DNA of 32,000 bases from Candidatus Saccharimonadota bacterium (GCA_017609205.1 JAFCEL010000001.1:120001-152000), one strand, 5' to 3'; positions 9,193-24,965 are shown, counted from the first letter of the stretch. The notes: generated by a model not told the origin, from the sequence alone. Translations and numbers: made by a program.

Positions 9193-9193
9193 A

Positions 9194-9307: not shown

Positions 9308-9308
9308 A

Positions 9309-10727
9309 ATGGTAGGACTAAAAAAAATCTCTAAGAACGAGTGGGAAATTCCTAAAGAAGGAAAAATGCTTGCTCCTGCACGAATTTTTGCGAGTGAAAA
9401 ACTTCTTAAAAAAATCAAAGAAGACAAAACAATAGAGCAGATTAAAAATGTCGCACAACTTCCTGGGATTTTAAAAATATCAATTGCGCTTCCTGACGCA
9501 CACCAAGGTTATGGATTCCCAATAGGAGGGGTTGCTGCCTTTGATTTAGAAAAAGGAATAATTTCTCCAGGGGGGGTTGGCTATGATATAAATTGCTCTG
9601 TAAGATTACTAAAAACAAACCTAACAAAAAGGGATATCGTTAATCAACAGAAGAAAATTGTCGAGGGACTCTTTAGAAAAATTCCATCAGGAGTTGGAAG
9701 AGGAAGTAAATTTCAGATTACAAGAAAGGAACTGAATAAAGTTCTAGAACAAGGTGCAAAATACATAGTAGAAAAAGGTTATGGAGTTAAAGAAGACTAT
9801 TTGCATACTGAAGAAGAAGGTTGTATTAAAGGTGCAGATGCGACAAAAGTTTCTGAGAGAGCAATTAAAAGAGGAATCGGACAATTAGGGACACTTGGAG
9901 CAGGCAATCATTTTTTAGAAGTTCAATTCGTCGATGAGATTTATGACGAAGAGATTGCCAAAGTTTTTGGATTAAAAAAAGGCGATATTACAATAATGAT
10001 TCATTGTGGTTCAAGAGGATTGGGTCATCAAGTTGCTTCAGACTACATTAAGTTAATGGAAGATAAATATGGTTTTAAGAATTTACCTGACAGAGAACTA
10101 GTTAATGCACCAATAAAAAGCGAATTAGGAAAAAACTATTTTGCGGCAATGGCATGTGCTGCGAATTTTGCTTTTGCGAACAAACAAATAATCACTCACT
10201 GGGTTAGAGAAGAAATGAAATATTTATTCCCAAATATAAAGATTGATGTTATTTACGACGTATGCCATAATATCGCGAAGTTTGAGAATTTTATTATCGA
10301 CGGAAAAGAACAAAAAGTCTGCGTTCATAGAAAAGGTGCGACAAGAAGTTTTGGTCCTGGAAGAAAGGAGGTTCCGGAGAGATATAGGGAAATAGGACAA
10401 CCAGTAATTATTCCGGGTTCTATGGGAACAGCATCATACTTATTAGTTGGAACAAAAAAAGCAGAAGAATTAACTTTTGGTTCAACTGCACATGGTGCTG
10501 GACGCATCTCTTCTAGAAGCAAAGCAATGAGAGATTTACGAGGAGAAGAAGTGAAGAAGAACTTAAGTAAAAAAGGAATTGAAGTAAAGTCAGGAAGTTG
10601 GAAAGCCCTTGCTCAAGAAGCACCTGAGGTATACAAAGATATTGATGAAGTAATAAAAGTTGTTGATGAAATTGGAATCAGCAAGAAGATTGCAAAATTA
10701 AGGCCTTTAACAGTCATCAAGGGTTAA
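9309..10727 (+). CDS. rtcB: RNA 3'-phosphate/tRNA-splicing ligase RtcB
   Basis: The conserved motifs GVGYDINCSVRLL, GAGNHFLEVQ, HCGSRGLGHQV and STAHGAGR are all present. The protein is 472 aa with no intein-sized insertion. Confidence 0.97.
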   Translation: MVGLKKISKNEWEIPKEGKMLAPARIFASEKLLKKIKEDKTIEQIKNVAQLPGILKISIALPDAHQGYGFPIGGVAAFDLEKGIISPGGVGYDINCSVRLLKTNLTKRDIVNQQKKIVEGLFRKIPSGVGRGSKFQITRKELNKVLEQGAKYIVEKGYGVKEDYLHTEEEGCIKGADATKVSERAIKRGIGQLGTLGAGNHFLEVQFVDEIYDEEIAKVFGLKKGDITIMIHCGSRGLGHQVASDYIKLMEDKYGFKNLPDRELVNAPIKSELGKNYFAAMACAANFAFANKQIITHWVREEMKYLFPNIKIDVIYDVCHNIAKFENFIIDGKEQKVCVHRKGATRSFGPGRKEVPERYREIGQPVIIPGSMGTASYLLVGTKKAEELTFGSTAHGAGRISSRSKAMRDLRGEEVKKNLSKKGIEVKSGSWKALAQEAPEVYKDIDEVIKVVDEIGISKKIAKLRPLTVIKG

Positions 10728-10734
10728 ATTTAAG
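10724..10734 (+). promoter_or_regulatory. TATA-like box for Cys-rich paralogue A
   Basis: ttaaatttaag overlaps the rtcB stop codon and is centred about 28 nt upstream of the ATG at 10757. Confidence 0.35.
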
Positions 10735-10756
10735 AATCTCAAATACTAGATAAACC

Positions 10757-11638
10757 ATGGAATCAAAGGAGTCAGGGGGATTGTTAACAAAACCTCTTAT
10801 TCTTATAGGCATTATTTTTATTTCTGCAATTGCAGTCAGTGCTTATATAAGCAATCAAAAACATAATTCTGGGAATATTTTAATGAATGTTAATGGCCAT
10901 AAAATGACATTGAAGGAGGCAATTGAAAACAATTTTATTTCTAAAGAAGCAACTCCAGATAAAGATTATACTACCTCGGTTTTAGTGGGTCATAATGCAA
11001 ATGAGATTTGGGTTTCTGTCGACGGTAATGAGTCTACATTAGAACAAGCCATCAATGGTGCAGGTCTGTGTGGAAGTTCTATTATTACATCTTATTCAAA
11101 TCCAAAACCAAACCCAGGACATTATGCAGATGAAGTCGAGATTACTATTAATGGGGACACAAAAACATTGCAACAGGCAATTGACGATGGGGATTTTTGT
11201 AATAATTTTGTAAAAGATTGCAAAGCAGATGGCGGCGAAATTGCAGATTGTGGAGGAACTCTGTGTTGTAAATTTAGTGGTAGTTCTTGTCCAACAGGTC
11301 TTGGATGGATTTCAAATGGTTGGAGTGAAAGTTCTGCTCAAACGGTATGTGGATTAGCTAACGTTTATCCAAGTTGCACAAAATTCACAGGTAGTTGTCC
11401 TACAAGTTGTTGCACAACTAGTTATCATACATGGAGTCATACTATGGTTAGAGAATATTGTTATGCAAGTGGGATGGCAAAAGGAAATTTACCAAATTGT
11501 TGTGAATGCAGTGGTTGTTCGAGTTCTCCTTACAGCTGTGGGGGCGACTGTCATGATGGCACCGCAATTTATCAATGTTGTTCAGGAACCTTAAGATTAA
11601 GTAATAAGCTAGTAAATGTCGGTTGCATAAAATCTTAA
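10757..11638 (+). CDS. Membrane-anchored Cys-rich surface protein (paralogue A) of an uncharacterised family
   Basis: It has an N-terminal signal-anchor (LILIGIIFISAIAVSAYI). Three repeats of about 43 aa begin with His (HNSGNILMNVNGHKMTLKEAIE / HNANEIWVSVDGNESTLEQAIN / HYADEVEITINGDTKTLQQAID). The C-terminal domain of about 145 aa has roughly 20 Cys. It is a paralogue of 21435-22280. Confidence 0.7.
   Translation: MESKESGGLLTKPLILIGIIFISAIAVSAYISNQKHNSGNILMNVNGHKMTLKEAIENNFISKEATPDKDYTTSVLVGHNANEIWVSVDGNESTLEQAINGAGLCGSSIITSYSNPKPNPGHYADEVEITINGDTKTLQQAIDDGDFCNNFVKDCKADGGEIADCGGTLCCKFSGSSCPTGLGWISNGWSESSAQTVCGLANVYPSCTKFTGSCPTSCCTTSYHTWSHTMVREYCYASGMAKGNLPNCCECSGCSSSPYSCGGDCHDGTAIYQCCSGTLRLSNKLVNVGCIKS
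11090..11199 (+). repeat. 110-nt block, 109/110 identical to the reverse complement of 21841-21950
   Basis: Hand alignment shows tcttattcaaatccaaaaccaaacccaggacattatgcagatgaagtcgagattactattaatggGgacacaaaaacattgcaacaggcaattgacgatggggatttttg with a single G/A mismatch. It encodes SYSNPKPNPGHYADEVEITINGDTKTLQQAIDDGDF(C). Confidence 0.9.
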
Positions 11639-11872
11639 TCTGTATAAAAATAGTTTTACAATACACAACTTTACAGAACTAATGGTTTATCTTGGAATTG
11701 TAGTAATTTTTATGCCTTTACCTAATCCATTTACATTTTTTCTTTTTCTTATTTAATTTCCCTTTATGATATATAGGCCCTATTTGGCATTCAGGAATAA
11801 TGCAAAAAATGACACAATATAAACAAGGGGCATGAACTTCAAATCAATGTACTGATTATGGAACGTATGAAA

Positions 11873-11882
11873 CTTTAAAAAC
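11873..11882 (+). promoter_or_regulatory. TATA-like box for the presenilin-homologue gene
   Basis: ctttaaaaac is centred about 25 nt upstream of the ATG at 11903. Confidence 0.4.
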
Positions 11883-11902
11883 CATTTTTTCTTTTTATAC
11901 TT

Positions 11903-12835
11903 ATGAAACATAAACCAAAGATAACAATAATTCTTCTGGCAATGTTTGTTATTACGCAGTTTATCGGGCTTTATGTTGTGGATCATTATTCTAAAACAAA
12001 AATTATCGACGGAAAAGTACAGAATGTGTCTGCTCCAGAATTGCCTTTTGGAATGGATACTCCTAGGATAGAGAAAGAAAGAGACTATTACTCTTTGTTC
12101 CCTTTTTTGATAATTGCGTTTGTTATTGCAATATCTTTGTTTATTATCTTTACTAAGTTTAATTTTGATTTTATAATCAAACTATGGTTTTTTATTGTGG
12201 TGGCTATGGCACTAGGAATTTCATTTAATTCTTTTTTACCTGGAACTCATTATTCATCAATAATTGTCCTAGCAATGGCTATTCCTCTTGCATTCATTAA
12301 AATATATCAGAAGAGCCTCTTGGTTCATAATCTAACTGAATTGTTTATTTATCCTGGGATTGCAGCGGTTTTTGTTCCAATTCTAAATATCTACACTGTC
12401 ATTGTACTTCTTATCTTAATCTCACTTTATGACATGTGGGCTGTATGGAAGTCAGGGATAATGCAGAAGATGGTAAAATACCAAACAGAAAAATTAAACC
12501 TTATGGCTGGGTTTTTTATTCCCCATATTGACAAAAAAACAAAAGAAAAAATAAAAAAGATGAAAAAAACCTTGAGTAAGGAGAAATTAAAGAAGAAAAG
12601 AATAAAAATTAACGTGGCTCTTTTAGGCGGAGGAGATGTGATTTTTCCAATAATAACTGCTGGAGTCATGATGAAAACATTTGGGTTTTTATCGTCAATC
12701 TTTGTTGTAGCAGGAGCGACTCTTGGCTTGGGATATTTATTCTTTTTCTCTGAAAAAAAGAAATTCTATCCTGCAATGCCTTTTATAACAGCAGGGATCT
12801 TTTTAGGAATAATCCTAGGTTGGTTTGTAAGTTAA
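11903..12835 (+). CDS. Presenilin/signal-peptide-peptidase homologue (GxGD intramembrane aspartyl protease, A22-like)
   Basis: About nine predicted TM helices are present. There is a YD motif in TM6 (LISLYDMWAVW), a GxGD motif in TM7 (LLGGGDVIFP) and a PAL-like motif in TM9 (FYPAMPFITAG). A Lys-rich cytoplasmic loop lies between the two catalytic helices. Confidence 0.85.
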   Translation: MKHKPKITIILLAMFVITQFIGLYVVDHYSKTKIIDGKVQNVSAPELPFGMDTPRIEKERDYYSLFPFLIIAFVIAISLFIIFTKFNFDFIIKLWFFIVVAMALGISFNSFLPGTHYSSIIVLAMAIPLAFIKIYQKSLLVHNLTELFIYPGIAAVFVPILNIYTVIVLLILISLYDMWAVWKSGIMQKMVKYQTEKLNLMAGFFIPHIDKKTKEKIKKMKKTLSKEKLKKKRIKINVALLGGGDVIFPIITAGVMMKTFGFLSSIFVVAGATLGLGYLFFFSEKKKFYPAMPFITAGIFLGIILGWFVS

Positions 12836-12885
12836 TATCTCAGACCCATAATGTTCTCACTTTATAAAAGTAACAAATAGAAAGA

Positions 12886-12895
12886 TTTATAAAAG
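12886..12895 (+). promoter_or_regulatory. TATA-like box for the 89-aa ORF/TrmB unit
   Basis: tttataaaag is centred about 25 nt upstream of the ATG at 12915. An identical 10-mer lies 25 nt further upstream at 12861-12870. Confidence 0.4.
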
Positions 12896-12914
12896 AGTAT
12901 TTCTGTGAATTATT

Positions 12915-13184
12915 ATGAGATATGAATTAAGAGTTTCACATAAGAAAGGAATAACTTATGATACTACTAATTTAGTGAAGCATATAGAAAAATCTGTACC
13001 TGGTGTTAAATCAGGAGATATTGAATTCAAGGTGATATATCCAATTATGGGATTTGAGGACGGACCAAGAAAGGCAACTAAAGCTAAATTATCTTTTTTT
13101 GGAAATTCTTTTAATCCAGCAGAAATTATGAGTGAAATCTGCGAAAGAGGGTATTACATAGAAGCTTCTAAATTAACCAAATGA
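12915..13184 (+). CDS. Hypothetical protein (89 aa)
   Basis: The ORF has a TATA-like box about 25 nt upstream and its stop lies 1 nt before the TrmB-family gene start. I recognise no motif. Confidence 0.5.
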   Translation: MRYELRVSHKKGITYDTTNLVKHIEKSVPGVKSGDIEFKVIYPIMGFEDGPRKATKAKLSFFGNSFNPAEIMSEICERGYYIEASKLTK

Positions 13185-13185
13185 A

Positions 13186-13965
13186 ATGTTAATCCATAAA
13201 GAATTAATCAATAAGATTAAAGATTATTTTGATTTGAATTTATATGAGACGAAAGTCTGGTTAGCTCTGCTTGGAAAAGGCATGGCATCTGCTGGTGAAA
13301 TTGCAGAAATATCAGGAGTCCCTCGCTCAAGAACATATGATGTGCTTGAGAGTTTAGAGAAAAAAGGATTTGCAATCGTTAGATTAGGAAAGCCTGTAAG
13401 ATATATTGGTATAAAACCAAAGATAGTCTTAGAGAAATTAAAAAACAATATAAAAAAAGATGCAGAAAACAAAATTAAAGACTTATCGAATATAAAAGAA
13501 AAAAATGAATTTATTGAACTTGAAAAATTATACAAGGGAGGGATTTCTCCTGTGAAAAGAGAAGATCTTTCTGCTTCATTAAAAGGAAAATCGAATATTA
13601 CCTCTTATCTTAGAGATATTTTGCAAAATGCAAATAAAGAGGTTATAATATGCACAAATGCTGAAGAAATAAAATCAAAATTTAAGCTATTCGAACAAAC
13701 ATTTAATCTCCTCAGTAAATCAGGTATAAAAATAAGAATCGCTCTATATGGTGATGAAAAAGCAATAAAGGAATTATCAAAGAAATTTAAAATCAAGATA
13801 AAAAAAATAGATATTGATACAAAATTCTTCATAATTGACAGAAAAGAAATTCTGTTTTATCTCTCAAAAAGTTCAACTAACGACGATACTGCAATCTGGC
13901 TTAATTCTGAGTTCTTTATTCAAGCATTTATATCTATGTTTGAAAGAGCGTTTAAGAATAAATAA
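13186..13965 (+). CDS. TrmB-family transcriptional regulator
   Basis: The N-terminal winged HTH LYETKVWLALLGKGMASAGEIAEISGVPRSRTYDVLESLEKKGFA is typical of TrmB (PF01978-type) regulators. Confidence 0.85.
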   Translation: MLIHKELINKIKDYFDLNLYETKVWLALLGKGMASAGEIAEISGVPRSRTYDVLESLEKKGFAIVRLGKPVRYIGIKPKIVLEKLKNNIKKDAENKIKDLSNIKEKNEFIELEKLYKGGISPVKREDLSASLKGKSNITSYLRDILQNANKEVIICTNAEEIKSKFKLFEQTFNLLSKSGIKIRIALYGDEKAIKELSKKFKIKIKKIDIDTKFFIIDRKEILFYLSKSSTNDDTAIWLNSEFFIQAFISMFERAFKNK

Positions 13966-13967
13966 AA

Positions 13968-15251
13968 TTATTTAATAATAATCTTAGAAATACCCATGTC
14001 ATTAATCTTCTTTTTATTATCCTGTTTCCAGAGATTAAGAAATTTTCTGATTGTAAAATTAATTTTTTCTCGTGCATGAATTCTTCCTCCTCTAATAAAA
14101 GTATTCCTATGTTTATGTCTGAATAAATTGAGGTTAATCTTATCTTCTATAAAAGGTCCGACATAAACAATTTCTTTCTTTGCTTTAATAACAAAAATAT
14201 ATCTCGCAGACTTCTTTTTAGAATACTCAAAATATTTTTCTTTTATTTCAAAATATTTTTCAATTTCTTTTGCTAAATGTCTATAGAATTTAAATAATTT
14301 GCTTCCTGCAACATCTCCTTCTTGCAATTTTGTTTTAACCTCAAGAATTATTATCTCGTAGTTATTTTTTTTGTTCTCTGAGTAAATCTTCTCAAGATCG
14401 ATTTTTTCTACTTCAAAGGACCTTATTGAAGGATTTTCTAAGAATTTTTTACACTGATCCTTGAACTTCTCAAATGTTTCTTGAGAAAGGGCAGCCAAAA
14501 CATTCCTTTGTTTATAAGTTGGATCGATTAAGATTATAGGGGATTGGAGTTTAGAACTATTCAAATCAAGCAAGATATTCTTCTTATTCTTGTGTTGCTT
14601 TTCAATATCAATGATTATTTTCTCACCCTTCCTAGAAGTTGCAATTGCCTTAATGAATTTTAAAAAACTCTTATAGTAACAGATTAATAATTCCAGCCCA
14701 TAGCCAGAAAAACCCCTTATATAGGATTCTGCTCCATAGCAGTTTTTTGCGTAACAGAATGCTTTCGCAAGCATAACTTCGTTTAAAATTTTCTCATTTT
14801 TTATCTTTTTATTTATGTATTTAACATGAGAATATGACAAATCAGTTATATTTTCTGCTTGTTCTGATTTTGTTATTTTTTTTACAGGAACAATCTCAAA
14901 GAATAATAAAGGAGAAACATTAACTTGGAAATAATCCCTTGACCCATGGACTTTTATAAAATTCCCAACGCCTTTCAGAATCTCTTCAGTCATCCCAGAG
15001 ATTTCTTTGTTATTGTATTTTTTATCAAATCTAAGAAAGATATCAATATCATATCTGTCTTTCTTTATCATAGTTTTCTTAGAATAACTTCCCCCAACAA
15101 ATATCTCTGCTTTTATATCGAGTGATTTGATCCTTATCTTAACTTTTTTCAAGAACTCTTTCAAATTCTTATCAATGAATTCCAAATCTTCTTTTGGAGG
15201 CCTAACCTTCTTTAAGGCTTCTTTTAGAATAGATTCTCTTTTTTTATCCAT
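13968..15251 (-). CDS. cca: CCA-adding enzyme (archaeal class I tRNA nucleotidyltransferase)
   Basis: The nucleotidyltransferase motif is FVGGSYSKKT...DIDIFLRF. The archaeal CCA signature is GAESYIRGFSGYGLELLICYY. The protein is 427 aa. Confidence 0.9.
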   Translation of the reverse strand: MDKKRESILKEALKKVRPPKEDLEFIDKNLKEFLKKVKIRIKSLDIKAEIFVGGSYSKKTMIKKDRYDIDIFLRFDKKYNNKEISGMTEEILKGVGNFIKVHGSRDYFQVNVSPLLFFEIVPVKKITKSEQAENITDLSYSHVKYINKKIKNEKILNEVMLAKAFCYAKNCYGAESYIRGFSGYGLELLICYYKSFLKFIKAIATSRKGEKIIIDIEKQHKNKKNILLDLNSSKLQSPIILIDPTYKQRNVLAALSQETFEKFKDQCKKFLENPSIRSFEVEKIDLEKIYSENKKNNYEIIILEVKTKLQEGDVAGSKLFKFYRHLAKEIEKYFEIKEKYFEYSKKKSARYIFVIKAKKEIVYVGPFIEDKINLNLFRHKHRNTFIRGGRIHAREKINFTIRKFLNLWKQDNKKKINDMGISKIIIK

Positions 15252-15270
15252 AAAATATATATCAAAAAGG

Positions 15271-15286
15271 CTTTTTATATTTTTAA
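15271..15286 (-). promoter_or_regulatory. TATA-like box for cca
   Basis: The minus-strand sequence ttaaaaatataaaaag is centred about 27 nt upstream of the ATG at 15251. Confidence 0.35.
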
Positions 15287-15313
15287 CAATAGTTGAGAAA
15301 ATTTATTTGGGGT

Positions 15314-15730
15314 CTAGTCTTTTTTCTGAGGATCTCTAATTTCCTTTATATCATTAATATTTCTTTTCAGTGTCGACGCTAAATCAATAATATACTTTCC
15401 TTCTTCCATCTTGTATATTAATGGCCTATCTTTTCTAAATAAATTTACCAAGTCAATCTCAAATTTTCCTGAACCAATCGCTCTGACTGACTCCAAATCA
15501 AGAATAACAGGTGCTTCCTGATCTGTAATCCCTGCAATCTCCCTTACATCTCTTTCAATTTTTATCTTTTCTTTTTCAGGAATTTCAATAATCGGTTCTT
15601 CTTTTATTCTCTCTAATTGCTCATCCCTAATATAAAAAAAGAATTTTCCTCCGCATTCTCCACATCCTTCTAAAAGCTCCCTACTTCCTAAAGGGATAAT
15701 TTTTTTGCAATGAACACACTGGTGTGGCAT
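15314..15730 (-). CDS. Zn-ribbon protein, DUF2072/COG3364-like (archaea-specific, function unknown)
   Basis: MPHQCVHCKK...GCGECGGKFFFY forms an N-terminal CxxC...CxxC ribbon, followed by an acidic linker and a C-terminal domain (GSGKFEIDLVNLF...EEGKYIIDL). The family assignment is from memory and is not a search result. Confidence 0.6.
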   Translation of the reverse strand: MPHQCVHCKKIIPLGSRELLEGCGECGGKFFFYIRDEQLERIKEEPIIEIPEKEKIKIERDVREIAGITDQEAPVILDLESVRAIGSGKFEIDLVNLFRKDRPLIYKMEEGKYIIDLASTLKRNINDIKEIRDPQKKD

Positions 15731-15759
15731 AGAAAGAGAATTTCCTAAAGTTAATAAAT

Positions 15760-16098
15760 TTATCTGTGTTTTTGACGATAATAACTTTCCAAACTATTCC
15801 AAATATTTTCTTCTATCCTTTGATTATCTCTATCACAAAAAGGGTCATCACAGCACGCGAGCTCTTCTAAACAACTAATACAATAATGATAATTTGATTG
15901 TTCTTCCTTAAATTTATAACCACAATTAGAACAAAAGTTTCCTTCCTCATATCTCAAAACTTTAGCATTAAATCCGAACAAAGGTCTTAATCTTTCTAAA
16001 TTCATAGAGACAAAAGCTTCAAGAATTTCTTCATTAGGAATTAAAGAGATAATACCTTCTATCTGTTTTTGATTCTTAAATATATTAAGTAATTCCAT
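15760..16098 (-). CDS. Hypothetical Cys-rich zinc-finger protein (112 aa)
   Basis: The Cys pattern is CSNCGYKF...YHYCISCLEELACCDDPFCDRD (CxxC...CxxC plus an extra Cys cluster). It is embedded in the GTPase module. Confidence 0.5.
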   Translation of the reverse strand: MELLNIFKNQKQIEGIISLIPNEEILEAFVSMNLERLRPLFGFNAKVLRYEEGNFCSNCGYKFKEEQSNYHYCISCLEELACCDDPFCDRDNQRIEENIWNSLESYYRQKHR

Positions 16099-16121
16099 TT
16101 TAATAAATCAAGAAGGTCCTA

Positions 16122-16529
16122 CTATTTATTCAACATTAATTCTATTTTTTTAGGATTTCTCTTAATCTCTTTAACTACTGTTGCTGGCCCTATTATGGTT
16201 ATCGCACTTAGATCCCCTCCAGAAAGAATATTTACAAATTTTCTTCTGAACTTTGAAAAGAGTTTATCATCTCCATTTCCAGCAATAACTGCGAGTTCGA
16301 TTCCCTTAAAACCTTTTACATGCCCAATCATAGCCATTGTATCTCCTATTAGCCTAGTTTCTTCTTCGGGCAACAATCTTCCTTGTAACAATAAAATATT
16401 ATTCCCTAAAACAATCCCCAAGATTTTCCTTATTCTTTCATCGCTGTTTAAAATCCTTATCTCAGAATAAGGCATAAATTGAATTGAAAAACCTTTTATT
16501 CTTCCTAAACTCTTTCTCTTTTTCTTCAT
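16122..16529 (-). CDS. DUF2073/COG3365-like archaeal protein (function unknown)
   Basis: The 135-aa protein has the core ILLLQGRLLPEEETRLIGDTMAMI, as I recall for DUF2073. It lies between the GTPase and the Zn-ribbon genes. The family assignment is from memory. Confidence 0.55.
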   Translation of the reverse strand: MKKKRKSLGRIKGFSIQFMPYSEIRILNSDERIRKILGIVLGNNILLLQGRLLPEEETRLIGDTMAMIGHVKGFKGIELAVIAGNGDDKLFSKFRRKFVNILSGGDLSAITIIGPATVVKEIKRNPKKIELMLNK

Positions 16530-16572
16530 TTTATATTCTATTATATATTTTGGAAAATATACTTTTAAAATC

Positions 16573-17217
16573 TTACTTTATTTTCTTTGAAAGTTTAAAA
16601 ATGGACTCATAAAATTCTTCAAGGTTTTTACCATATTTTGCACTTATTCCAATGACCTCGTATTCAGGGAATGCAGATTCTATTTTCTTAATATTCGCTT
16701 TTTTTAAGTCTATTTTATTTGCAACTATCAAAACAGGAATCTTTCTTGCAATAAGATTTCCAATTATAGTAATATTTACCTGATTATAAGGATTCTCGCA
16801 TGCATCTAACACAACCACAACAATATTCATATCATCAAGCCATTTTATGCTCTCAACAACGCCTTGTGTTGCTTCTTTTGCTCTTGCTTTTGCATCACGT
16901 TTTTTCATTTTAAATTTTAGAAACTCTTCATAGTCAATTTTAGTTGCTATCCCAGGAGTATCAATCATTTTGAACACTAGTTTTTTTCCTTTATATTCGA
17001 TTTCAACTTTCTCTTTAAACTGAACATTTCTCGTCTCGTGAGGTATCTTACTCACACTTCCAATTTCTTCCCCTGTGAAATCCTTACAGATTCGATTAGC
17101 AAGACTTGTTTTTCCTGCGTTTGGAGGTCCATAAAAACCCAATTTTATCTCTTTCTTATTTCTGAAGATATTCAGAAAAATTCTTTTGAAAAAATTCTTT
17201 ACAATTCTTATTGCCAT
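16573..17217 (-). CDS. Small GTP-binding protein (Era/EngB-like P-loop GTPase)
   Basis: G1 is GPPNAGKTS, G3 is DTPGI, G4 is ANKID and G5 is SAK. Confidence 0.9.
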   Translation of the reverse strand: MAIRIVKNFFKRIFLNIFRNKKEIKLGFYGPPNAGKTSLANRICKDFTGEEIGSVSKIPHETRNVQFKEKVEIEYKGKKLVFKMIDTPGIATKIDYEEFLKFKMKKRDAKARAKEATQGVVESIKWLDDMNIVVVVLDACENPYNQVNITIIGNLIARKIPVLIVANKIDLKKANIKKIESAFPEYEVIGISAKYGKNLEEFYESIFKLSKKIK

Positions 17218-17236
17218 AAATTATCTTAAAATCAAT

Positions 17237-17249
17237 CTTTATTAAATTT
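17237..17249 (-). promoter_or_regulatory. TATA-like box for the GTPase gene
   Basis: The minus-strand sequence aaatttaataaag is centred about 26 nt upstream of the ATG at 17217. It overlaps the stop codon of the upstream 886-aa gene. Confidence 0.35.
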
Positions 17250-19902
17250 TTCGTGCTGGAGTTACTCTTTTTATAGAAGGGTTCTTCTGAGAAACCTTAT
17301 TTACATCCTTCTTTGGAACCAAATTCTTTACTTTATCAACGAACTTCATTACAGGTATCTCAACCATCCCTGTCCTTTTTCCGAGATATTTTTTGATAAC
17401 ATAATCAATTTGTTCTGACCTCCATCCTTGTTCTTTTAACTTGGCTTTTATTTTCTCATCACTTTCTCCTCTCTCTTTTGCATTTTTAATATAAACAATA
17501 AGATTATACAAATCGTTTCTTTCTCTGAAGAGATAGTTTTCATATTTTCTCTTATACCACTCTTGTAAGAAAATATATGTCCCAAATCCTAGTAATAAAA
17601 TAATCATTATAATCGCTACCAACCACCCCCATTTCATATTTTCTAATACCCTTGAAGGAGGCCTGAGAAGTTCTAATCTTTCAATCCCAGGAGATATAAA
17701 AACAGGGAGTTCAAAAAAATCAACATCCTCTGTAGTAGAAAATTCAATTATTTTCTCAGGAGAATTCATATCAATAACAAAATATCCAGAACTTTCAGTT
17801 TCAAGATAGTTTTCTTTAAACATTAAATTTTCCATTTTTTTTATTATAATATAAGGGTCAGCATCCATTCCTTCTTTTGCTTTTAGGCTCAATTTGAATA
17901 AATTTACAATATCCTCCTGCATCCCACCATCATAAACTCCAGAGAGTTTTTCAGAACTTAATCTAACCTCAACATTTTTTTGTTCCCACATAAGAACAGC
18001 TTTTAGATAATCATCTTTTTCTTCAATAGGATAATTCCCATTACTTAAATTTCCCAATACCTCAAGATTGATATTCTCCTCCAAAGGGTAGAAGAGAAGG
18101 TTTTCTGTTTTTTTACTTGTAATAATTCTAGAGGGTATCTTTAAATCCAAAATTCTTTCAACAATCTGATTATACTCTTCTTCTGTGCTTGCAGAGGCAT
18201 AATCTCTCTGAATTTGTTTGAATTCTTCAGTAACTTTATCAAGATTAATAACAGACTTTATTGCTTGTTGGTAAAAAACGTCTTTTGAGTTGATTTGCTC
18301 TTCGAGATTGGACAGGTCTTGTTGCATTTGCTCAATCTTTTCCTTTAGAAGTTCCTTTGGTGAAACTACAACAACATCAAATTCTCTTGAAGAAATTCTT
18401 CCCAAAGTATCTTCAATAGTCACTCTCAAAATAAAAGTTCCTGTATCAGAATAAGTATGAGAGACTTTATTCGTTTGTGTTGTTTCAGTACTGTTATCTC
18501 CGAAGTCCCATTTATAACTTCTTATTTCAACATCAGAATCAAGAAGGATTCTAAAAGAAGTGGGAAACGCCGAAGCTGTTTTTGTAGGAATTAAATATTT
18601 TGGCTGAGGAATATCTTCTACAAAAATGTTCTCAGATAAAACATTCTCCCCATTTAATTTAAGGTCGAAAGTGTAATTACCATATTCTGAAGGAGTCTTA
18701 AATCCAGCATAATCAAGGCGTATTTTTTGACTATCTGCTGTAACTTTTGCAGGAGATTCCTCTAATTCATAAAACTTATCCTCAACTATGTTCCCAAGAG
18801 AGGTTTCGTATTTAAGTTTGAGAGACTTAAGAATTATTCTTTGCTGTTCTCCTGATAAAATCTTAAATGGAATAATGCAACCTCCAGAGCAATTAAGCCC
18901 CTCATACCTGCTTGTTAAATAATCATTCATTTCTCCAGAGAGAGTGTTTCCATAAGAAATTGAGTTTGTTATATTCAAAATACCGACGCTGTCAAATTTT
19001 CTCCCTTCAGCAAATATTCTAAAAGAAGCATCTTCATCCTGGATTCCCTCACCATAAAAACCACAACCATTTGCATCAGAGTAACCTTTTATCTTGGATG
19101 TCCCCTCTTCCTCAGAATAGACACAAACATAATACTCTTCTTTTTCCAAAAGAGGATGCTCAATCTCACAAGAGTATTCTTTTGCTGTTGTTAGATTTGT
19201 TATTTCACACACGCCACCTTCAACTGGCTCTCCGTCGGGCTTATAGAGAGCAATTTTTATACTCCGTGAATCCCCTTCTGGGTTTATCCATGCTCCCAGA
19301 TTAAATCCTGCTGATGCAGACAGATTAATTCTTTGACAATGTTTATTTGGAAGTCTTCCTATAATATACTCATTTGAAGTAATATTCTCATCAAAACATC
19401 CATAATCTCTCATAGAATCGCATGCCTCTAGAGAAGACTTTGAATTACCTGTTTCAATTGTTCCATCTAATCCAAAATCTATTCTTATTTGATTATAACA
19501 GGATTTTCCTGCGTCACTTTCAACCACAAAATCAATAGAGTTAATAGCAATTATGTCTCCCTCTAATAAAAAACCAAAGATTTTCTCAGAGTCAATACCT
19601 ATATCAAAACTTTTTTCAGTTTCTCCATTTAAAGGAGAATAATCAGAACTGCAATTTTTTATATTGCACGAATACTGAAGATTTTTATTAGATTCTAAAA
19701 GATTAATCAAAGTTACTTTATTTCCAAAAGAATCAGAAAACAAAGAATTCGCTGGCTCTTTTTGAAAACTTAGATTAACCCAGCCCTTTATATTTCCTGA
19801 AGGCTTATAGTATTTATCAATTGAATAATCTCCAATCTTATAATCTGCACAAACAAAATTTACTAAGACGATGAATAGTAAAAAAATAACCTCTCTTTTC
19901 AT
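17242..19902 (-). CDS. Large type I membrane surface protein with a PKD domain, a coiled coil, a C-terminal TM helix and a cytoplasmic tail of about 100 aa
   Basis: The signal peptide is MKREVIFLLFIVLVNFVCA and the N-terminal region is Cys-containing. The PKD signature is YKWDFGDNS...GTFILRVTIEDTLG. The TM helix is WGWLVAIIMIILLLGFGTYIFL, followed by a basic tail. Confidence 0.75.
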   Translation of the reverse strand: MKREVIFLLFIVLVNFVCADYKIGDYSIDKYYKPSGNIKGWVNLSFQKEPANSLFSDSFGNKVTLINLLESNKNLQYSCNIKNCSSDYSPLNGETEKSFDIGIDSEKIFGFLLEGDIIAINSIDFVVESDAGKSCYNQIRIDFGLDGTIETGNSKSSLEACDSMRDYGCFDENITSNEYIIGRLPNKHCQRINLSASAGFNLGAWINPEGDSRSIKIALYKPDGEPVEGGVCEITNLTTAKEYSCEIEHPLLEKEEYYVCVYSEEEGTSKIKGYSDANGCGFYGEGIQDEDASFRIFAEGRKFDSVGILNITNSISYGNTLSGEMNDYLTSRYEGLNCSGGCIIPFKILSGEQQRIILKSLKLKYETSLGNIVEDKFYELEESPAKVTADSQKIRLDYAGFKTPSEYGNYTFDLKLNGENVLSENIFVEDIPQPKYLIPTKTASAFPTSFRILLDSDVEIRSYKWDFGDNSTETTQTNKVSHTYSDTGTFILRVTIEDTLGRISSREFDVVVVSPKELLKEKIEQMQQDLSNLEEQINSKDVFYQQAIKSVINLDKVTEEFKQIQRDYASASTEEEYNQIVERILDLKIPSRIITSKKTENLLFYPLEENINLEVLGNLSNGNYPIEEKDDYLKAVLMWEQKNVEVRLSSEKLSGVYDGGMQEDIVNLFKLSLKAKEGMDADPYIIIKKMENLMFKENYLETESSGYFVIDMNSPEKIIEFSTTEDVDFFELPVFISPGIERLELLRPPSRVLENMKWGWLVAIIMIILLLGFGTYIFLQEWYKRKYENYLFRERNDLYNLIVYIKNAKERGESDEKIKAKLKEQGWRSEQIDYVIKKYLGKRTGMVEIPVMKFVDKVKNLVPKKDVNKVSQKNPSIKRVTPARKI

Positions 19903-19920
19903 CTCTAAAAATAGTAATTC

Positions 19921-19932
19921 TCTTTTATAAAA
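19921..19932 (-). promoter_or_regulatory. TATA-like box for the 886-aa surface protein gene
   Basis: The minus-strand sequence ttttataaaaga is centred about 25 nt upstream of the ATG at 19902, inside a 35-nt intergenic gap. Confidence 0.4.
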
Positions 19933-19937
19933 TTATC

Positions 19938-21353
19938 TCATCTTTTTGTTTTAGATTTCTTTTTCTTAGACAAAAGATAATAAATAATTACAATAATCCC
20001 CAAGGCTATTAAAATACTAATAATAGAAAACAAAGGAAGTAATGCTGCAACAGGACAAGGAATCCTATTAGTCCCTTCTTGCTCACATGCTCCGAAATTA
20101 TCATTAGGATCATAATGCCAATTCCCAGAACCATTAGGCTCTTCAATCCATCCTGGCTCTCCTTGTTTTTCACTTCCGAAAATATTTCCAGAATCCCATG
20201 TGTAAATGCCCAACCAGGAATACTCTAAAAACCCATCTTCACAATCATCAGTAGTATTCTCCTTATAAAAACAACTTCCAATTACAACAGGATTTTCATC
20301 ACTACAATTTAAATTATCTGTTTTAGATGGTCCACAATAACCATCAACCCACTCACACGAGCAAGTATACCATATCTGGCAATTTCCATCAGTAAAAACT
20401 TCTCCGCAAGAATCTCCTCCATCATTGTTTTCAATACTTATGCTCGCAACACTGCAGATATCTGCTTCACAATCTTCTTCTGAAGTGTAATCTCTACATA
20501 TTCCAATTGAACTACAAAAACTATCTCGATTTATTAAATTGAACTGAATATTATTGCTTGAAAAATCCAAAACATTAAAATAAAAATTATCAAGTTCTCC
20601 TTCTAAAGGGCTCTCTAATGCTTTATCTATATCCTCTTGAGTTACAGTCCATAAGGCTTTTGCATTTCCTTCTGAATCAACAGTTGCATTAATAGTCCTC
20701 AGATATCCATAACCCATAAGATCTTCTTCATAGATATCAAAACCAACTATTGTCCCTTCAGACAATCCAGAATTCTTTAAAACCATCATTAATTGAGTAG
20801 AACCAACAACAACATCATAAGTTCCATCTATCATACCCTCATCACTATCTGCCCAATAAGCAATTGCTTCATCTACACATTGTCCGTCTATAAATTCTTG
20901 TGCTGTACCGCATACCCCTTCACAACATATTTTCACAGGATAATCTCCTGCTTCTCCAATATGGGCATCTGTTAGATTTGTCAAAGACAAGACTTCTAAT
21001 TCTGTAGGATTACAAGAATCTCTGTTTGTACAAACCAGATTCTCATAACAAATAGGATTATCATAGTTATTATAATCAGGGATTTCAGCGTGAGAATTTG
21101 TTCTATTCTCAAGTTTTATTATCACATTCCCTAATGAACAGTCAGTACTTCCTGTTCCAAAATTACAGCACAAAACATAATCATAATTCCCTTCACTAAG
21201 AAGCTCTCCATGTGCATTTGTCGGCGCAGATAATCCCATAATTTCATTATAAGCACAAGAGACTTTTGGAACAATTGTACAATTTTCAGCAGAAATATTC
21301 GCAAGTAGCAAGATTGTTAAATAAATAAAAAACATCACCCCTATCTTCTTCAT
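19938..21353 (-). CDS. Cys-rich surface protein with a triple TNAH...CC repeat and a C-terminal TM anchor with a polybasic tail
   Basis: The signal peptide is MKKIGVMFFIYLTILLLANISA. Three repeats are present (LSAPTNAHGELLSEGNYDYVLCC / LENRTNSHAEIPDYNNYDNPICY / LTNLTDAHIGEAGDYPVKICC). The C-terminus is PVAALLPLFSIISILIALGIIVIIYYLLSKKKKSKTKR. Confidence 0.75.
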   Translation of the reverse strand: MKKIGVMFFIYLTILLLANISAENCTIVPKVSCAYNEIMGLSAPTNAHGELLSEGNYDYVLCCNFGTGSTDCSLGNVIIKLENRTNSHAEIPDYNNYDNPICYENLVCTNRDSCNPTELEVLSLTNLTDAHIGEAGDYPVKICCEGVCGTAQEFIDGQCVDEAIAYWADSDEGMIDGTYDVVVGSTQLMMVLKNSGLSEGTIVGFDIYEEDLMGYGYLRTINATVDSEGNAKALWTVTQEDIDKALESPLEGELDNFYFNVLDFSSNNIQFNLINRDSFCSSIGICRDYTSEEDCEADICSVASISIENNDGGDSCGEVFTDGNCQIWYTCSCEWVDGYCGPSKTDNLNCSDENPVVIGSCFYKENTTDDCEDGFLEYSWLGIYTWDSGNIFGSEKQGEPGWIEEPNGSGNWHYDPNDNFGACEQEGTNRIPCPVAALLPLFSIISILIALGIIVIIYYLLSKKKKSKTKR

Positions 21354-21373
21354 GTTTGTTTTAAGAAAATATG

Positions 21374-21385
21374 TTTTATAAATTT
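21374..21385 (-). promoter_or_regulatory. TATA-like box for the 471-aa Cys-rich protein gene
   Basis: The minus-strand sequence aaatttataaaa is centred about 26 nt upstream of the ATG at 21353. Confidence 0.4.
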
Positions 21386-21434
21386 AATTGTATCTTTGAA
21401 GAGAATATATAATTAATCAATAGAGATTAATAAA

Positions 21435-22280
21435 TTATAATTTGCAAAGTACAACACCAGGTCCTCCAGTTATAGGGTCTCTTAAACAAGCACCACTACT
21501 ACTTGTGCAAACATAAGAGGAGGGGGTTTCCCAATAACAGCCAACACATAATTGGGCATCTGTTCCAAAATTATCTTGGCAACATTGTTGCCCTGTAATT
21601 CCAATACAATCCTCCATATATACACATTGGTAATTATATGTACAATCTTGTGTTTTTGAACAAACTCCTCCACAAAAACTACAATCAACATTCTCTACAA
21701 ATGTTCCATCCAAATACTTTCCACAAGTTCTAGTAATTGTTTGAGTTCTTCCAGATTCCAAGTTCTGACAATAACCACACTGGCTTCTTGTATTATAATT
21801 CCAATCAGAATATTGATAAGTGTAAGTATAAACAGGCTGGCAAAAATCCCCATCGTCAATTGCCTGTTGCAATGTTTTTGTGTCTCCATTAATAGTAATC
21901 TCGACTTCATCTGCATAATGTCCTGGGTTTGGTTTTGGATTTGAATAAGAAGTTGTGGGTGTGCTTCCGCATAGATTATTTGATGCAATTGCATCTGCTA
22001 AAGTCATTTCATTTCCATCAACAGAAACCCAAATCTCATCAGGATTATGTCCAAAACTAACAGAAGTTGTTCCAGAGCTTGTCGGTGCACTTGCATTTAC
22101 CCTTAAATAATCTCCTTCAATTGCTTCCTTTAAAGTCATTGTTTTTCCATCGATGTTAACAAGAATATCGCTTGAAGAATGTTTTTTTCCATAAATCCCT
22201 GCGTAAATAATCATTAATGTAAAAACTATGCTAAGAAGAAATGCAGCAACTATTCTCAGTTTTTCTGTCTCTAACTTCAT
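21435..22280 (-). CDS. Membrane-anchored Cys-rich surface protein (paralogue B of 10757-11638)
   Basis: It has the same architecture as paralogue A, namely a signal-anchor and three His-initiated repeats (HSSSDILVNIDGKTMTLKEAIE / HNPDEIWVSVDGNEMTLADAIA / HYADEVEITINGDTKTLQQAID). Its Cys-rich C-terminal domain (about 18 Cys) is unrelated to that of A. Confidence 0.7.
   Translation of the reverse strand: MKLETEKLRIVAAFLLSIVFTLMIIYAGIYGKKHSSSDILVNIDGKTMTLKEAIEGDYLRVNASAPTSSGTTSVSFGHNPDEIWVSVDGNEMTLADAIASNNLCGSTPTTSYSNPKPNPGHYADEVEITINGDTKTLQQAIDDGDFCQPVYTYTYQYSDWNYNTRSQCGYCQNLESGRTQTITRTCGKYLDGTFVENVDCSFCGGVCSKTQDCTYNYQCVYMEDCIGITGQQCCQDNFGTDAQLCVGCYWETPSSYVCTSSSGACLRDPITGGPGVVLCKL
21841..21950 (-). 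repeat. Inverted copy of the 110-nt block at 11090-11199
   Basis: The reverse complement matches 11090-11199 at 109/110 positions by hand alignment. The flanking conserved codons differ at many synonymous sites. Confidence 0.9.
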
Positions 22281-22301
22281 AGTTATAACACTTATTTGGG
22301 G

Positions 22302-22312
22302 TTTTTAAATTT
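22302..22312 (-). promoter_or_regulatory. TATA-like box for Cys-rich paralogue B
   Basis: The minus-strand sequence aaatttaaaaa is centred about 27 nt upstream of the ATG at 22280 and overlaps the secG stop codon. Confidence 0.4.
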
Positions 22313-22469
22313 AATGCAAAAATATTGCTAAGAATATTCTGAATAAAATAATAAAGATAACAAACAAAATTACATGCATTGGTTTTAAATTGAATTTGCT
22401 CGGATATTCTTCTCCAAACCTCATCAATCCCCCAAATCCTCCGGGAAGATTTACTCCTGTATTTGCCAT
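22311..22469 (-). CDS. secG: Preprotein translocase subunit Sec61-beta (archaeal SecG), 52 aa
   Basis: The minus-strand ORF gives MANTGVNLPGGFGGLMRFGEEYPSKFNLKPMHVILFVIFIILFRIFLAIFLH*. The G-L-x-R-[FY]-x-E...K-[IL/V]-K-P-x-x-V motif followed by a single C-terminal TM helix matches archaeal Sec61-beta. It is below the ORF-track cutoff. Confidence 0.7.
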   Translation of the reverse strand: MANTGVNLPGGFGGLMRFGEEYPSKFNLKPMHVILFVIFIILFRIFLAIFLH

Positions 22470-22489
22470 ATTCTCAAAAAGAGCAATAG

Positions 22490-22499: not shown

Positions 22500-22519
22500 T
22501 TTCTTGATTGGATTAATCT

Positions 22520-24944: not shown

Positions 24945-24965
24945 CCCTTTTTCTTTGTCTAAATT

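What the first reader, a model, noticed from the sequence alone, without database searches (positions are those of the whole stretch)
11090..21950. A 110-nt near-identical inverted block links two diverged Cys-rich surface-protein paralogues at the conserved/variable domain junction
Genes 10757-11638 (+) and 21435-22280 (-) are paralogues with clearly diverged N-terminal halves. In the MTLKEAIE and IWVSVDGNE segments I count several synonymous differences per about 25 nt. In contrast, 11090-11199 and the reverse complement of 21841-21950 match at 109/110 nt. The block encodes SYSNPKPNPGHYADEVEITINGDTKTLQQAIDDGDFC and stops at the Cys codon, after which the two proteins have unrelated Cys-rich C-terminal domains. 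This pattern suggests recent gene conversion or a recombination hot spot. Because the copies are inverted and in the same reading frame, reciprocal recombination would invert the intervening 10.6 kb (11200-21840) and swap the C-terminal heads between the two N-terminal anchors and promoters. That would be a recombinase-independent domain-shuffling or phase-variation arrangement. The layout recalls polymorphic toxin or adhesin families with a conserved demarcation motif. No recombinase gene is visible in the window.
Basis: partly seen in the sequence, partly recalled or inferred. Interest (0 to 1): 0.8.

Follow-up and report, generated by a model that had tools for sequence, protein, structure and literature searches.

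The report
Gene-conversion tract between two archaeal surface-protein paralogues
Two inverted, otherwise strongly diverged surface-protein genes of an uncultivated small-genome (DPANN-type) archaeon share a 110-base stretch that is virtually identical, most likely because one gene recently copied that stretch from the other by ordinary homologous recombination; I found no evidence that it acts as a DNA-flipping switch.

Summary
Window 11090-11199 and the reverse complement of 21841-21950 match at 109/110 nt. The rest of the two aligned N-terminal coding regions is 55% identical. Synonymous differences occur at 27/48 conserved codons outside the block and 1/36 inside (p=7e-8). None of 200,000 shuffles gave a comparable run.

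Both genes belong to a large, unannotated DPANN-archaeal family of about 1000 cluster representatives. Members have a signal anchor, one to three 'GH.A.E(I/V)...TLQQAIDDGDF' modules, and unrelated C-terminal heads that start right after that motif.

The closest relatives vary freely at synonymous sites in this segment, and the block has no RNA-structure signal. Three other assemblies confirm the block sequence. The best explanation is a short gene-conversion tract, or residual concerted evolution, in the junction-proximal module.

The proposed inversion switch is geometrically possible but unsupported:
- all four assemblies carry only the parental junctions;
- no chimeric protein exists in 5.8 billion clusters;
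- both genes have their own start codon and TATA-like element, so there are no silent cassettes;
- no recombinase or reverse transcriptase is in the window.

This is a new example of a known process, in a poorly known family. Interest is moderate to low.

The parts
10724..10745 (+). Conserved upstream element TTAAATTTAAGAATCTCAAATA of gene A. The TATA-like box TTAAATTTAA lies 24-33 nt before the ATG and overlaps the RtcB stop codon.
   Evidence: It aligns with the equivalent element upstream of gene B (columns 26-47; sequence). Promoter function is inferred from position and archaeal TATA consensus and was not tested.
10757..11638 (+). Gene A, 293 aa: a TM/signal anchor, three 'beta-hairpin + short helix' modules each ending TL..AI, and Cys-rich head A.
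   Evidence: The AF2 model has pLDDT>90 for residues ~20-150 and <50 for the head. There is no Pfam or NCBIfam hit. An identical copy occurs in JGI contig L001.
11090..11199 (+). Block A: the 110-nt near-identical tract (module 3 plus its preceding linker, codons 112-147 and two bases of Cys148).
11200..11638 (+). Head A: a Cys-rich C-terminal domain, unrelated to head B, with no detectable homologue.
11200..21840 (.). The 10,641-nt segment between the inverted blocks. Besides heads A and B, it carries SPP, an 89-aa ORF, TrmB, the CCA-adding enzyme, OapC, a 112-aa ORF, OapB, a GTPase, an 886-aa PKD protein and a 471-aa surface protein. It contains no recombinase.
   Evidence: The orientation is the same in L002 and L021.
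21435..21840 (-). Head B: a Cys-rich C-terminal domain beginning with a degenerate TSP1-like repeat, as in relatives P0003, L003 and P0092.
   Evidence: The TSP1 resemblance of head B itself comes from my inspection only; there is no Pfam hit.
21841..21950 (-). Block B: the inverted copy of the 110-nt tract.
   Evidence: It has the same sequence in L002 and L021, except for their 20/22-nt deletions at its 5' edge.
21435..22280 (-). Gene B, 281 aa (= P0093), with the same architecture as gene A.
22293..22314 (-). Conserved upstream element TTAAATTTAAAAACCCCAAATA of gene B. It overlaps the stop codon of the Sec61-beta gene (22320-22478, -).

Best explanation
The block is a short gene-conversion tract between two inverted paralogues of a DPANN-archaeal secreted or membrane-anchored protein family.

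The two genes descend from an old duplication, and synonymous sites outside the block are close to saturation. At some point a break or gap in the module-3 coding region of one copy was repaired by the cell's general homologous-recombination machinery (RadA-type strand exchange). The other copy, 10.6 kb away and inverted, served as template, and the event resolved without crossover. That overwrote about 70-110 nt.

The 3' limit is set by the end of homology, because the heads are unrelated. The conserved KTLQQAIDDGDF-coding stretch provided a ready-made run of near-identity for pairing. Alternatively, module 3 may be the last island in which such conversions have kept recurring since the duplication.

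What is shown: the tract, its statistics, the absence of nucleotide-level constraint in relatives, reproducibility across assemblies, and a single orientation in all assemblies.

What is inferred: the enzymology (RadA-dependent, non-crossover), the direction of transfer, and the timing. The tract is at least as old as the split of the two sampled strains, because both carry the same block B.
For: - Synonymous differences occur at 1/36 aa-identical codons inside the block and 27/48 outside (p=7e-8). The run of 110 nt with 1 mismatch was never reached in 2 x 200,000 shuffles.
- At protein level, module 3 is 100% identical between A and B, while module 2 is only 18/28 identical.
- In the closest relatives, the same segment differs at 12/26, 12/26 and 6/22 aa-identical codons. 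Selection on the DNA or on codon choice therefore does not explain the identity.
- The block RNA fold has z=+0.65, and the window has no Rfam or tRNA hit.
- The block, including its one diagnostic mismatch, is reproduced in L001, L002 and L021.
- Other family pairs show even identity rather than an island: L009/L012 at 75%, L016/L018 at 85%, and the L023 tandem pair at 76% over 59 nt. The island is therefore a specific event in this genome.
- A Rad51/RadB-family ATPase lies in the window at 29632-30360, so the lineage carries at least part of a homologous-recombination toolkit.
- Precedent: conversion between inverted tuf paralogues, with tracts bounded by the ends of homology (PMC5485169), and efficient gene conversion in the archaeon Haloferax (PMC11276520, title and abstract only).
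Against: - The flanks are only ~55% identical, so pairing had to start from very short homology unless module 3 was already similar. This makes a single recent event between fully diverged copies somewhat hard and favours the 'residual island of concerted evolution' variant.
- Donor and recipient cannot be determined.
- No close orthologue (>65% aa identity) exists in any searched collection, so there is no phylogenetic proof of incongruence.
- Part of the identity (the last ~38 nt) would be expected anyway.
Confidence: 0.78

Rival explanations
1. The two blocks are the crossover sites of a functional, recombinase-independent invertible segment. Reciprocal exchange flips 11200-21840 and swaps heads A and B between the two N-terminal stalks and promoters, giving population heterogeneity. 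The near-identity is maintained because it is needed for switching.
For: The copies are inverted, in the same frame, and end exactly at the stalk/head junction, so both products of an inversion would be intact genes. A 110-nt identity is enough for general recombination. Inversions at 85- and 333-bp repeats inside hsdS genes occur without CreX and without RecA in pneumococcus (PMC6620402). Assemblies show disturbances at the 5' edge of block B: 20- and 22-nt deletions in L002 and L021.
Against: Four assemblies from at least two strains carry only the parental junctions, and none breaks at a block. No chimeric N-A/C-B or N-B/C-A protein appeared among the hits to either gene. Both genes have their own ATG and the same TATA-like element, there are no promoterless cassettes, and the motif occurs only in these two genes in the window. 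An inversion would therefore create no new head and no on/off change. The diagnostic G/A mismatch is fixed in each copy across assemblies. The flipped segment would carry housekeeping genes. The same JGI assembly also has a frameshifting 26-nt deletion in RtcB, so the deletions are probably assembly artefacts.
Confidence: 0.07
2. The identity reflects purifying selection plus codon bias on a functionally critical module, or on an embedded nucleotide signal, with no recombination involved.
For: The KTLQQAIDDGDF motif is nearly invariant across the family. Its coding DNA is 85-95% identical even between distant members.
Against: Relatives differ at 27-46% of aa-identical codons in the same segment. 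The 5' part of the block (SYSNPKPNPGHYADEVEITINGD) is not conserved across the family, yet it is identical here. There is no RNA structure. Module 2 is equally conserved in the family but diverged between A and B.
Confidence: 0.03
3. The block is an assembly or polishing artefact, with reads of one copy imposed on the other, or the contig is mis-joined at the repeat.
For: This is a metagenome-derived genome. The repeat length (110 nt) is near typical k-mer and read sizes. Two other assemblies have small deletions at the block edge.
Against: Both copies, each with its own flanks on both sides and its own diagnostic base, are recovered in other assemblies: gene A in L001, and gene B in L002 and L021. 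L002 comes from a strain with 74 SNPs over 20 kb.
Confidence: 0.03
4. The block marks a head-replacement event. One gene acquired its present head, with part of module 3, from another family member or another strain by recombination anchored in the conserved module. This would be C-terminal displacement as in polymorphic toxin or adhesin loci, and the donor happened to be, or to resemble, the other copy.
For: Across the family, homology ends at the same codon and the heads are of many unrelated kinds: TSP1, InlB-B-like, Lcl_C, tail-fibre-like, and various Cys-rich types. Head A has no homologue, while head B is of the common TSP1-like type.
Against: The identical tract does not extend into either head, so neither head was copied from the other gene. 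No orphan cassette was seen in the window. No donor was identified.
Confidence: 0.09

Closest known systems
Gene conversion / concerted evolution between inverted paralogues, e.g. tufA/tufB of Salmonella (PMC5485169)
   Same: Two paralogues in inverted orientation on one chromosome. There is non-reciprocal transfer of a continuous tract, bounded by the end of homology. No dedicated recombinase is involved.
   Different: The tuf genes are ~99% identical over their whole length and about 700 kb apart (the distance is from my own knowledge). Here only one 110-nt island is homogenised in otherwise ~55%-identical sequence. The organism is an archaeon and the genes encode variable surface proteins.
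Phase-variable type I R-M hsdS invertons, e.g. the pneumococcal spnIII locus (PMC6620402)
   Same: In-frame inverted repeats of about 85-333 bp inside paralogous coding sequences, sitting at a domain junction. Exchange swaps domains and can occur without the dedicated recombinase and without RecA.
   Different: spnIII has one expressed hsdS and silent partial copies in a compact ~5-kb locus, and all variants are seen in every culture. Here there are two complete expressed genes 10.6 kb apart with housekeeping genes between them, and only one arrangement is observed.
Shufflons and Din-type invertase systems for tail-fibre or pilus-tip C-termini (R64 Rci; Mu Gin, P1 Cin). From my own knowledge.
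   Same: Alternative C-terminal heads are joined to a constant N-terminal part by DNA inversion.
   Different: Those systems use short specific sites (about 19-34 bp) and an adjacent site-specific recombinase, with promoterless alternative cassettes. None of these features is present here.
Polymorphic toxin / adhesin families with a demarcation motif (Rhs PxxxxDPxGL, CdiA VENN). From my own knowledge.
   Same: A conserved N-terminal part, a sharp conserved junction motif (here TLQQAIDDGDF/C), and unrelated C-terminal modules across family members.
   Different: No toxin or immunity domains, no orphan cassettes and no delivery-system repeats were found. The proteins are small (190-660 aa), and the heads look like disulfide-rich binding modules.
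Gene conversion in multigene antigen families, e.g. M. tuberculosis PE/PPE (PMC13061034, title and abstract only) and Neisseria pilE/pilS (own knowledge)
   Same: Short conversion tracts between diverged members of a surface-protein gene family.
   Different: In those systems conversion diversifies the variable part. Here it homogenises a constant part next to the variable part.

Membership tests
Gene-conversion tract between paralogues | A contiguous stretch with identity significantly above that of the flanking homologous sequence. | tested here: met
   109/110 nt against 55.4% in the flanks; 0 of 200,000 shuffles reached the run.
Gene-conversion tract between paralogues | Synonymous sites are homogenised inside the tract but not outside. 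| tested here: met
   1/36 inside against 27/48 outside, Fisher p=7e-8.
Gene-conversion tract between paralogues | The identity is not explained by constraint on the nucleotide sequence: orthologues or relatives vary at those sites. | tested here: met
   12/26, 12/26 and 6/22 aa-identical codons differ in L022, L023 and L026. RNA fold z=+0.65.
Gene-conversion tract between paralogues | Phylogenetic incongruence: the tract groups paralogues within the genome, while the flanks group orthologues across genomes. | not testable with these tools
   No relative above ~63% aa identity was found in any collection.
Site-specific invertible shufflon / Din-invertase head switch | A site-specific recombinase (serine invertase or tyrosine Rci/Xer-like) is encoded next to the invertible DNA. 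| tested here: not met
   Pfam scans of the main predicted genes of the window (the longest ORFs of 89 aa or more; short and overlapping ORFs not scanned) found none. The only related hit is a Rad51/RadB-family ATPase at 29632-30360.
Site-specific invertible shufflon / Din-invertase head switch | One expressed constant 5' part plus promoterless alternative 3' cassettes. | tested here: not met
   There are two complete genes, each with an ATG and the same TATA-like element. No further motif copies occur in the six frames of the window.
Site-specific invertible shufflon / Din-invertase head switch | Both orientations coexist in a population. | tested here: not met
   The window, L001, L002 and L021 have parental junctions only. 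No chimeric proteins were found. Reads were not available, so rare variants are untested.
Recombinase-independent inverton (spnIII-like) | In-frame inverted repeats of tens to hundreds of bp at a domain junction of paralogous coding sequences. | tested here: met
   A 110-nt inverted repeat, in the same frame, ending at the stalk/head junction.
Recombinase-independent inverton (spnIII-like) | Observable switching that changes which domain combination is expressed. | tested here: not met
   A single arrangement is seen in all assemblies, and both genes appear expressible in either arrangement.
Diversity-generating retroelement (TR/VR pair) | A reverse transcriptase nearby, and TR/VR differences confined to adenines of the template. 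| tested here: not met
   No RT is in the window. There is only one mismatch (G/A), and both copies are in frame and code for the same peptide.
Polymorphic toxin/adhesin family with demarcation motif | A conserved N-terminal region, a conserved junction motif, and unrelated C-terminal modules among members. | tested here: met
   Homology stops at ...DDGDF in A/B, L009/L012 and L016/L018, and the heads are of many types.
Polymorphic toxin/adhesin family with demarcation motif | Orphan C-terminal cassettes and/or cognate immunity genes downstream. | tested here: not met
   No extra motif copies occur in the window. The downstream genes are SPP and a 471-aa surface protein. Only 32 kb of the genome could be examined.
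Polymorphic toxin/adhesin family with demarcation motif | A recognisable toxin domain in the C-terminal module. | tested here: not met
   Heads A and B have no Pfam or NCBIfam hit. Family heads that do hit are TSP1, Flg_new_2 and Lcl_C, which are binding-type domains.

The most novel reading that the evidence does not exclude
The junction-proximal module of this ~1000-member DPANN surface-protein family is a recombination anchor. Because its coding DNA is kept similar by amino-acid constraint, codon bias and occasional conversion, family members within and between genomes can exchange C-terminal heads by homologous or homology-facilitated recombination at the ...TLQQAIDDGDF junction. On this reading, the 110-nt tract in this window is the first direct footprint of such exchange. 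The inverted A/B pair could also flip at low frequency, re-pairing stalks and heads without any dedicated recombinase.
Probability: 0.25. Interest if true: 0.6.

Novelty: new member of a known kind. Interest (0 to 1): 0.33.

Why it matters
DPANN archaea are mostly episymbionts that depend on contact with host cells, and their surface proteins are almost entirely uncharacterised. The finding matters in two modest ways.

First, it is a clean, assembly-verified footprint of intragenomic homologous recombination between paralogues in a lineage known only from metagenomes.

Second, it draws attention to a large family, 997 cluster representatives, that has no Pfam or NCBIfam model and no match in the PDB. 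The family has a confidently predicted three-module stalk and interchangeable disulfide-rich heads joined at an almost invariant motif.

If head exchange at that motif is a general mechanism, it would be an archaeal counterpart of bacterial polymorphic adhesin/toxin loci. The tract by itself is an ordinary population-genetic phenomenon.

Tried and rejected
- **Diversity-generating retroelement.** Rejected: no RT, one mismatch, and both copies coding.
- **Structured RNA or other nucleotide-level element in the block.** Rejected: fold z=+0.65, and no Rfam or tRNA hit in the window.
- **Site-specific recombinase, transposase or integrase in the window.** None found.
- **Strict degenerate scan of JGI metagenome contigs for any DNA encoding the 33-aa block peptide.** Zero hits. 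A looser scan for KTLQQAIDDGDF gave 6 loci, all distant family members and none a close relative or chimera.
- **Scan of GTDB species-representative genomes.** The source genome is absent. Twelve distant family loci were found in Pacearchaeota, Woesearchaeota and Iainarchaeum MAGs.
- **Scan of viral contigs for the family.** None found.
- **Block-limited identity in other paralogue pairs** (L009/L012, L016/L018, L023 tandem). Not found; identity in those pairs is even.
- **Positional orthology of P0002, P0092 and P0039 with gene A** (downstream of RtcB). Rejected: their upstream genes are not RtcB.
- **Fold search of the AF2 model against the PDB.** No significant match.
- **Literature search for the motif strings.** Nothing relevant.
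- **A claimed 8-fold excess of strain SNPs between the blocks.** My first count was based on a truncated list. The correct contrast is 2.4-fold (5.2 against 2.2 per kb), it is patchy, and it is not tied to the block edges.
- **Link between the deletions and repair from gene A.** I considered that the 20/22-nt deletions at the block edge could be connected to repair using gene A as template. Rejected: the 7-8 nt upstream of the block in intact gene B do not match gene A.


Full report
**1. The observation**

The window contains two ORFs of the stated coordinates, gene A (10757-11638, +, 293 aa) and gene B (21435-22280, -, 281 aa). The repeat finder reports inverted arms 11065-11199 / 21841-21975 (135 nt, 91%) and a weaker continuation 10970-11052 / 21988-22070 (83 nt, 71%). 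No other copy occurs in the 32 kb.

Codon-by-codon comparison shows that 11090-11199 equals the reverse complement of 21841-21950 except at one synonymous site (GGG/GGA, window 11152). The next difference is the third base of the Cys codon (TGT/TGC), and after that the sequences are unrelated. Upstream of 11090, identity falls at once to about 56%.

Over the rest of the aligned N-terminal halves, 146 of 327 nt differ, which is 55.4% identity. Among codons for identical, degenerate amino acids, 27/48 differ outside the block and 1/36 inside (Fisher p=7e-8). A run of 110 nt with at most one mismatch was never approached in 200,000 site shuffles (maximum 45) or 200,000 codon shuffles (maximum 64). 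The two C-terminal domains have no significant similarity (E=0.84).

**2. The block is not an assembly artefact**

Four assemblies cover parts of the region.
- L001 (JGI sample 3300033141, 2.9 kb) equals window 9027-11926 and carries intact gene A with the G variant.
- L021 (same sample, 42,995 nt) equals window 11813-31735 with 0 SNPs.
- L002 (GCA_017608185.1, 43,000 nt) covers the same span and differs by 74 SNPs, so it comes from another strain.
- L021 and L002 both carry block B with the A variant, flanked by N-B and C-B.

The sequence of both copies and the diagnostic mismatch are therefore reproducible.

Both 43-kb contigs have a small frameshifting deletion straddling the 5' edge of block B: 22 nt in L021 and 20 nt in L002, within window 21936-21957. 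L001, from the same assembly as L021, has a comparable frameshifting 26-nt deletion inside RtcB, an enzyme that archaea can hardly do without. I therefore regard these deletions as probable local assembly errors, but I could not check reads.

**3. What the genes are**

The window is from a ~31% G+C archaeon. It carries archease, RtcB, the archaeal CCA-adding enzyme, TrmB, a presenilin-type signal-peptide peptidase, OapB/OapC, aRF1, ScpB, a Rad51/RadB-family ATPase and an archaeal type IV pilus locus.

Genes A and B have no Pfam or NCBIfam match. Each has an N-terminal hydrophobic anchor, three repeats of a ~28-aa module (GH.A.E[IV].[VI]...G...TL..AI...), and a Cys-rich head.

AlphaFold2 with a 55-sequence alignment models residues ~20-150 at pLDDT>90. 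The model has a TM helix followed by three units of beta-hairpin plus short helix. The head is not modelled (pLDDT<50). Foldseek finds nothing similar in the PDB.

Profile searches show a large family: 89 clusters in the word-indexed search, and 997 / 546 / 250 representatives at E<=1e-3 / 1e-10 / 1e-30 in the exhaustive search. All are 'hypothetical'. Where a source organism is named, they come from Pacearchaeota, Woesearchaeota, Iainarchaeum or 'archaeon' MAGs.

Members have one to three modules. The last module almost always ends KTLQQAIDDG(D/E)F, often followed by C. After that come very different heads: TSP1 repeats, InlB-B-like, Lcl_C, tail-fibre-like 'GNVGIGTSSP' repeats, Gly-rich, or various Cys-rich domains.

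In other pairs, nucleotide homology also stops exactly at the GDF codons. This holds for two genes on one Iainarchaeum contig (L009/L012) and for two contigs of one metagenome (L016/L018). In L016/L018, homology starts ~30 nt upstream of the ATG. The family is thus modular, with a conserved junction motif.

No family member was found on viral contigs, and the motif is not mentioned in the searchable literature.

**4. Why gene conversion is the best explanation**

Four alternatives to recombination were tested.
- Constraint on the DNA itself. In the three closest relatives whose DNA I could fetch (L022, L023, L026), codons for the same amino acids in this segment differ at 12/26, 12/26 and 6/22 positions. 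Synonymous sites are therefore free.
- RNA structure. The block folds no better than shuffles (z=+0.65), and the window has no Rfam hit.
- Stronger protein constraint on module 3. Across the family, module 2 and module 3 are similarly conserved. Between A and B, however, module 2 is 18/28 identical and module 3 plus its linker is 37/37 identical.
- Assembly artefact. See section 2.

What remains is non-reciprocal homologous recombination between the two copies. The process is well described for inverted paralogues such as tufA/tufB, where tracts are continuous and limited by the bounds of homology (PMC5485169). It is also known to be efficient in at least one archaeon (PMC11276520, abstract).

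Two refinements follow from the data. First, the 3'-most ~38 nt are 85-95% identical even to distant family members. The sharp 3' edge is therefore the family-wide end of homology, and that stretch could have provided the pairing anchor. The conversion signal proper sits in 11090-11161.

Second, the flanks are so diverged that module 3 may be the last island of a once larger region of concerted evolution, rather than the product of one isolated event.

Both sampled strains (0.37% apart) share the same block B, and the copies differ at 1/110. The last conversion is therefore not younger than the strain split. This last point is inference.

**5. The inversion / domain-shuffling idea**

The copies are inverted and in the same frame, so a crossover would invert 11200-21840 and yield two intact chimeric genes. 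Recombination at repeats of this size without a dedicated recombinase has precedent (PMC6620402). Several results nevertheless argue against a working switch.
- No assembly breaks at a block or carries a non-parental junction.
- Searches with either full-length protein in 5.8 billion clusters returned only the parental proteins, their truncated versions and distant relatives, with no N-A/C-B or N-B/C-A chimera.
- Both genes carry the same TATA-like element (TTAAATTTAA) 24-34 nt upstream of their ATG. Both are therefore probably expressed.
- There are no silent cassettes, and no further copies of the motif occur in any frame of the window.
- An inversion would neither create a new head nor change which heads are made. 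It would only exchange two equivalent stalks.
- The window has no recombinase, transposase or reverse transcriptase.

I therefore rate a functional switch at below 10%. Sporadic, selectively near-neutral inversions remain possible and untested.

**6. Comparison with known systems and novelty**

In mechanism, the finding is a new example of gene conversion between paralogues. In architecture, the family resembles polymorphic adhesin/toxin families with a demarcation motif. It lacks their defining accessories (toxin domains, immunity genes, orphan cassettes), as far as 32 kb allow one to see.

It is not a shufflon, not a Din-type inversion system and not a DGR; the defining features were tested and not met (see the membership table). 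The family itself, with its confidently folding but structurally unmatched stalk module, appears undescribed. That is the more interesting by-product.

**7. Verdict**

Novelty: a new member of a known kind. Interest: about 0.33.

Noticed in passing
window 21936-21957 (L002:~10035, L021:~9780): Two other assemblies of this locus have frameshifting deletions of 20 nt (L002, a different strain) and 22 nt (L021, identical strain). Both straddle the 5' edge of block B and split gene B into two ORFs. This is probably a local assembly error at the repeat boundary, but a real fragile site at the homology/heterology junction is not excluded.
   Followed up: partly
window 9488-9513 (L001:~488): JGI contig L001 has a 26-nt frameshifting deletion inside RtcB and is otherwise 100% identical to the window. 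This suggests that this metagenome assembly is prone to ~20-26-nt deletion artefacts.
   Followed up: no
window 11813-11926 and 9027: Both 43-kb contigs (L002, L021) start at exactly window 11813, and L001 (same sample as L021) ends at 11926, giving a 114-nt overlap in the gene A-SPP intergenic region. L001 also starts at 9027, inside the archease gene. The archease-RtcB-gene A stretch therefore assembles as a separate 2.9-kb contig. That hints at a repeat elsewhere in the genome or at strain-level structural variation around gene A.
   Followed up: no
window 11813-31988 vs L002: The 74 SNPs between the two strains are patchy: 5.2 per kb between the blocks and 2.2 per kb to the right of block B (binomial p=4e-4). 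SNP-free tracts occur at 20989-23190 (all of gene B) and ~24901-27800. This looks like an ordinary recombination mosaic, and its boundaries do not coincide with the blocks.
   Followed up: partly
window 15314-16529 (-): The genes for origin-associated proteins OapC and OapB lie almost exactly at the midpoint (16520) of the segment bounded by the inverted blocks. No orc1/cdc6 gene and no origin-like repeats were seen in the window, so proximity to a replication origin is unproven.
   Followed up: no
window 10757-11200 and family members (A5, P0001-P0210): The N-terminal stalk is three units of beta-hairpin plus short helix, modelled by AF2 at pLDDT>90. It belongs to a family of ~1000 cluster representatives with no Pfam or NCBIfam model and no PDB structural match, and appears to be an undescribed DPANN extracellular module.
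   Followed up: partly
window 19938-21353 (-) and L022:1-756: The 471-aa protein downstream of gene B has no Pfam hit and only a weak C-terminal anchor-like match. It has a homologue (33% over 106 aa) directly upstream of the family gene P0092 on an unrelated contig, which hints at a functional association between the two families.
   Followed up: no
L023:2-1454: Two family genes lie in tandem, 31 nt apart. One has a TSP1-type head and the other a Cys-rich head. They share only 76% identity over 59 nt, so there is no conversion island in that pair.
   Followed up: yes
window 357-6463 (+): An archaeal type IV pilus-like locus: a Pilin_N protein, a PilB-type ATPase, two T2SSF/PilC-like membrane proteins and three small unannotated ORFs. 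It is followed by a 737-aa beta-helix/PKD surface protein on the opposite strand (6490-8703).
   Followed up: no
window 22320-22478 (-): A small unlisted ORF (52 aa) upstream of gene B matches Sec61-beta below Pfam's cut-off (E=2.9e-4; 21.3 bits against 27), so the assignment is tentative. Its stop codon overlaps gene B's TATA-like element, just as the RtcB stop codon overlaps gene A's.
   Followed up: partly
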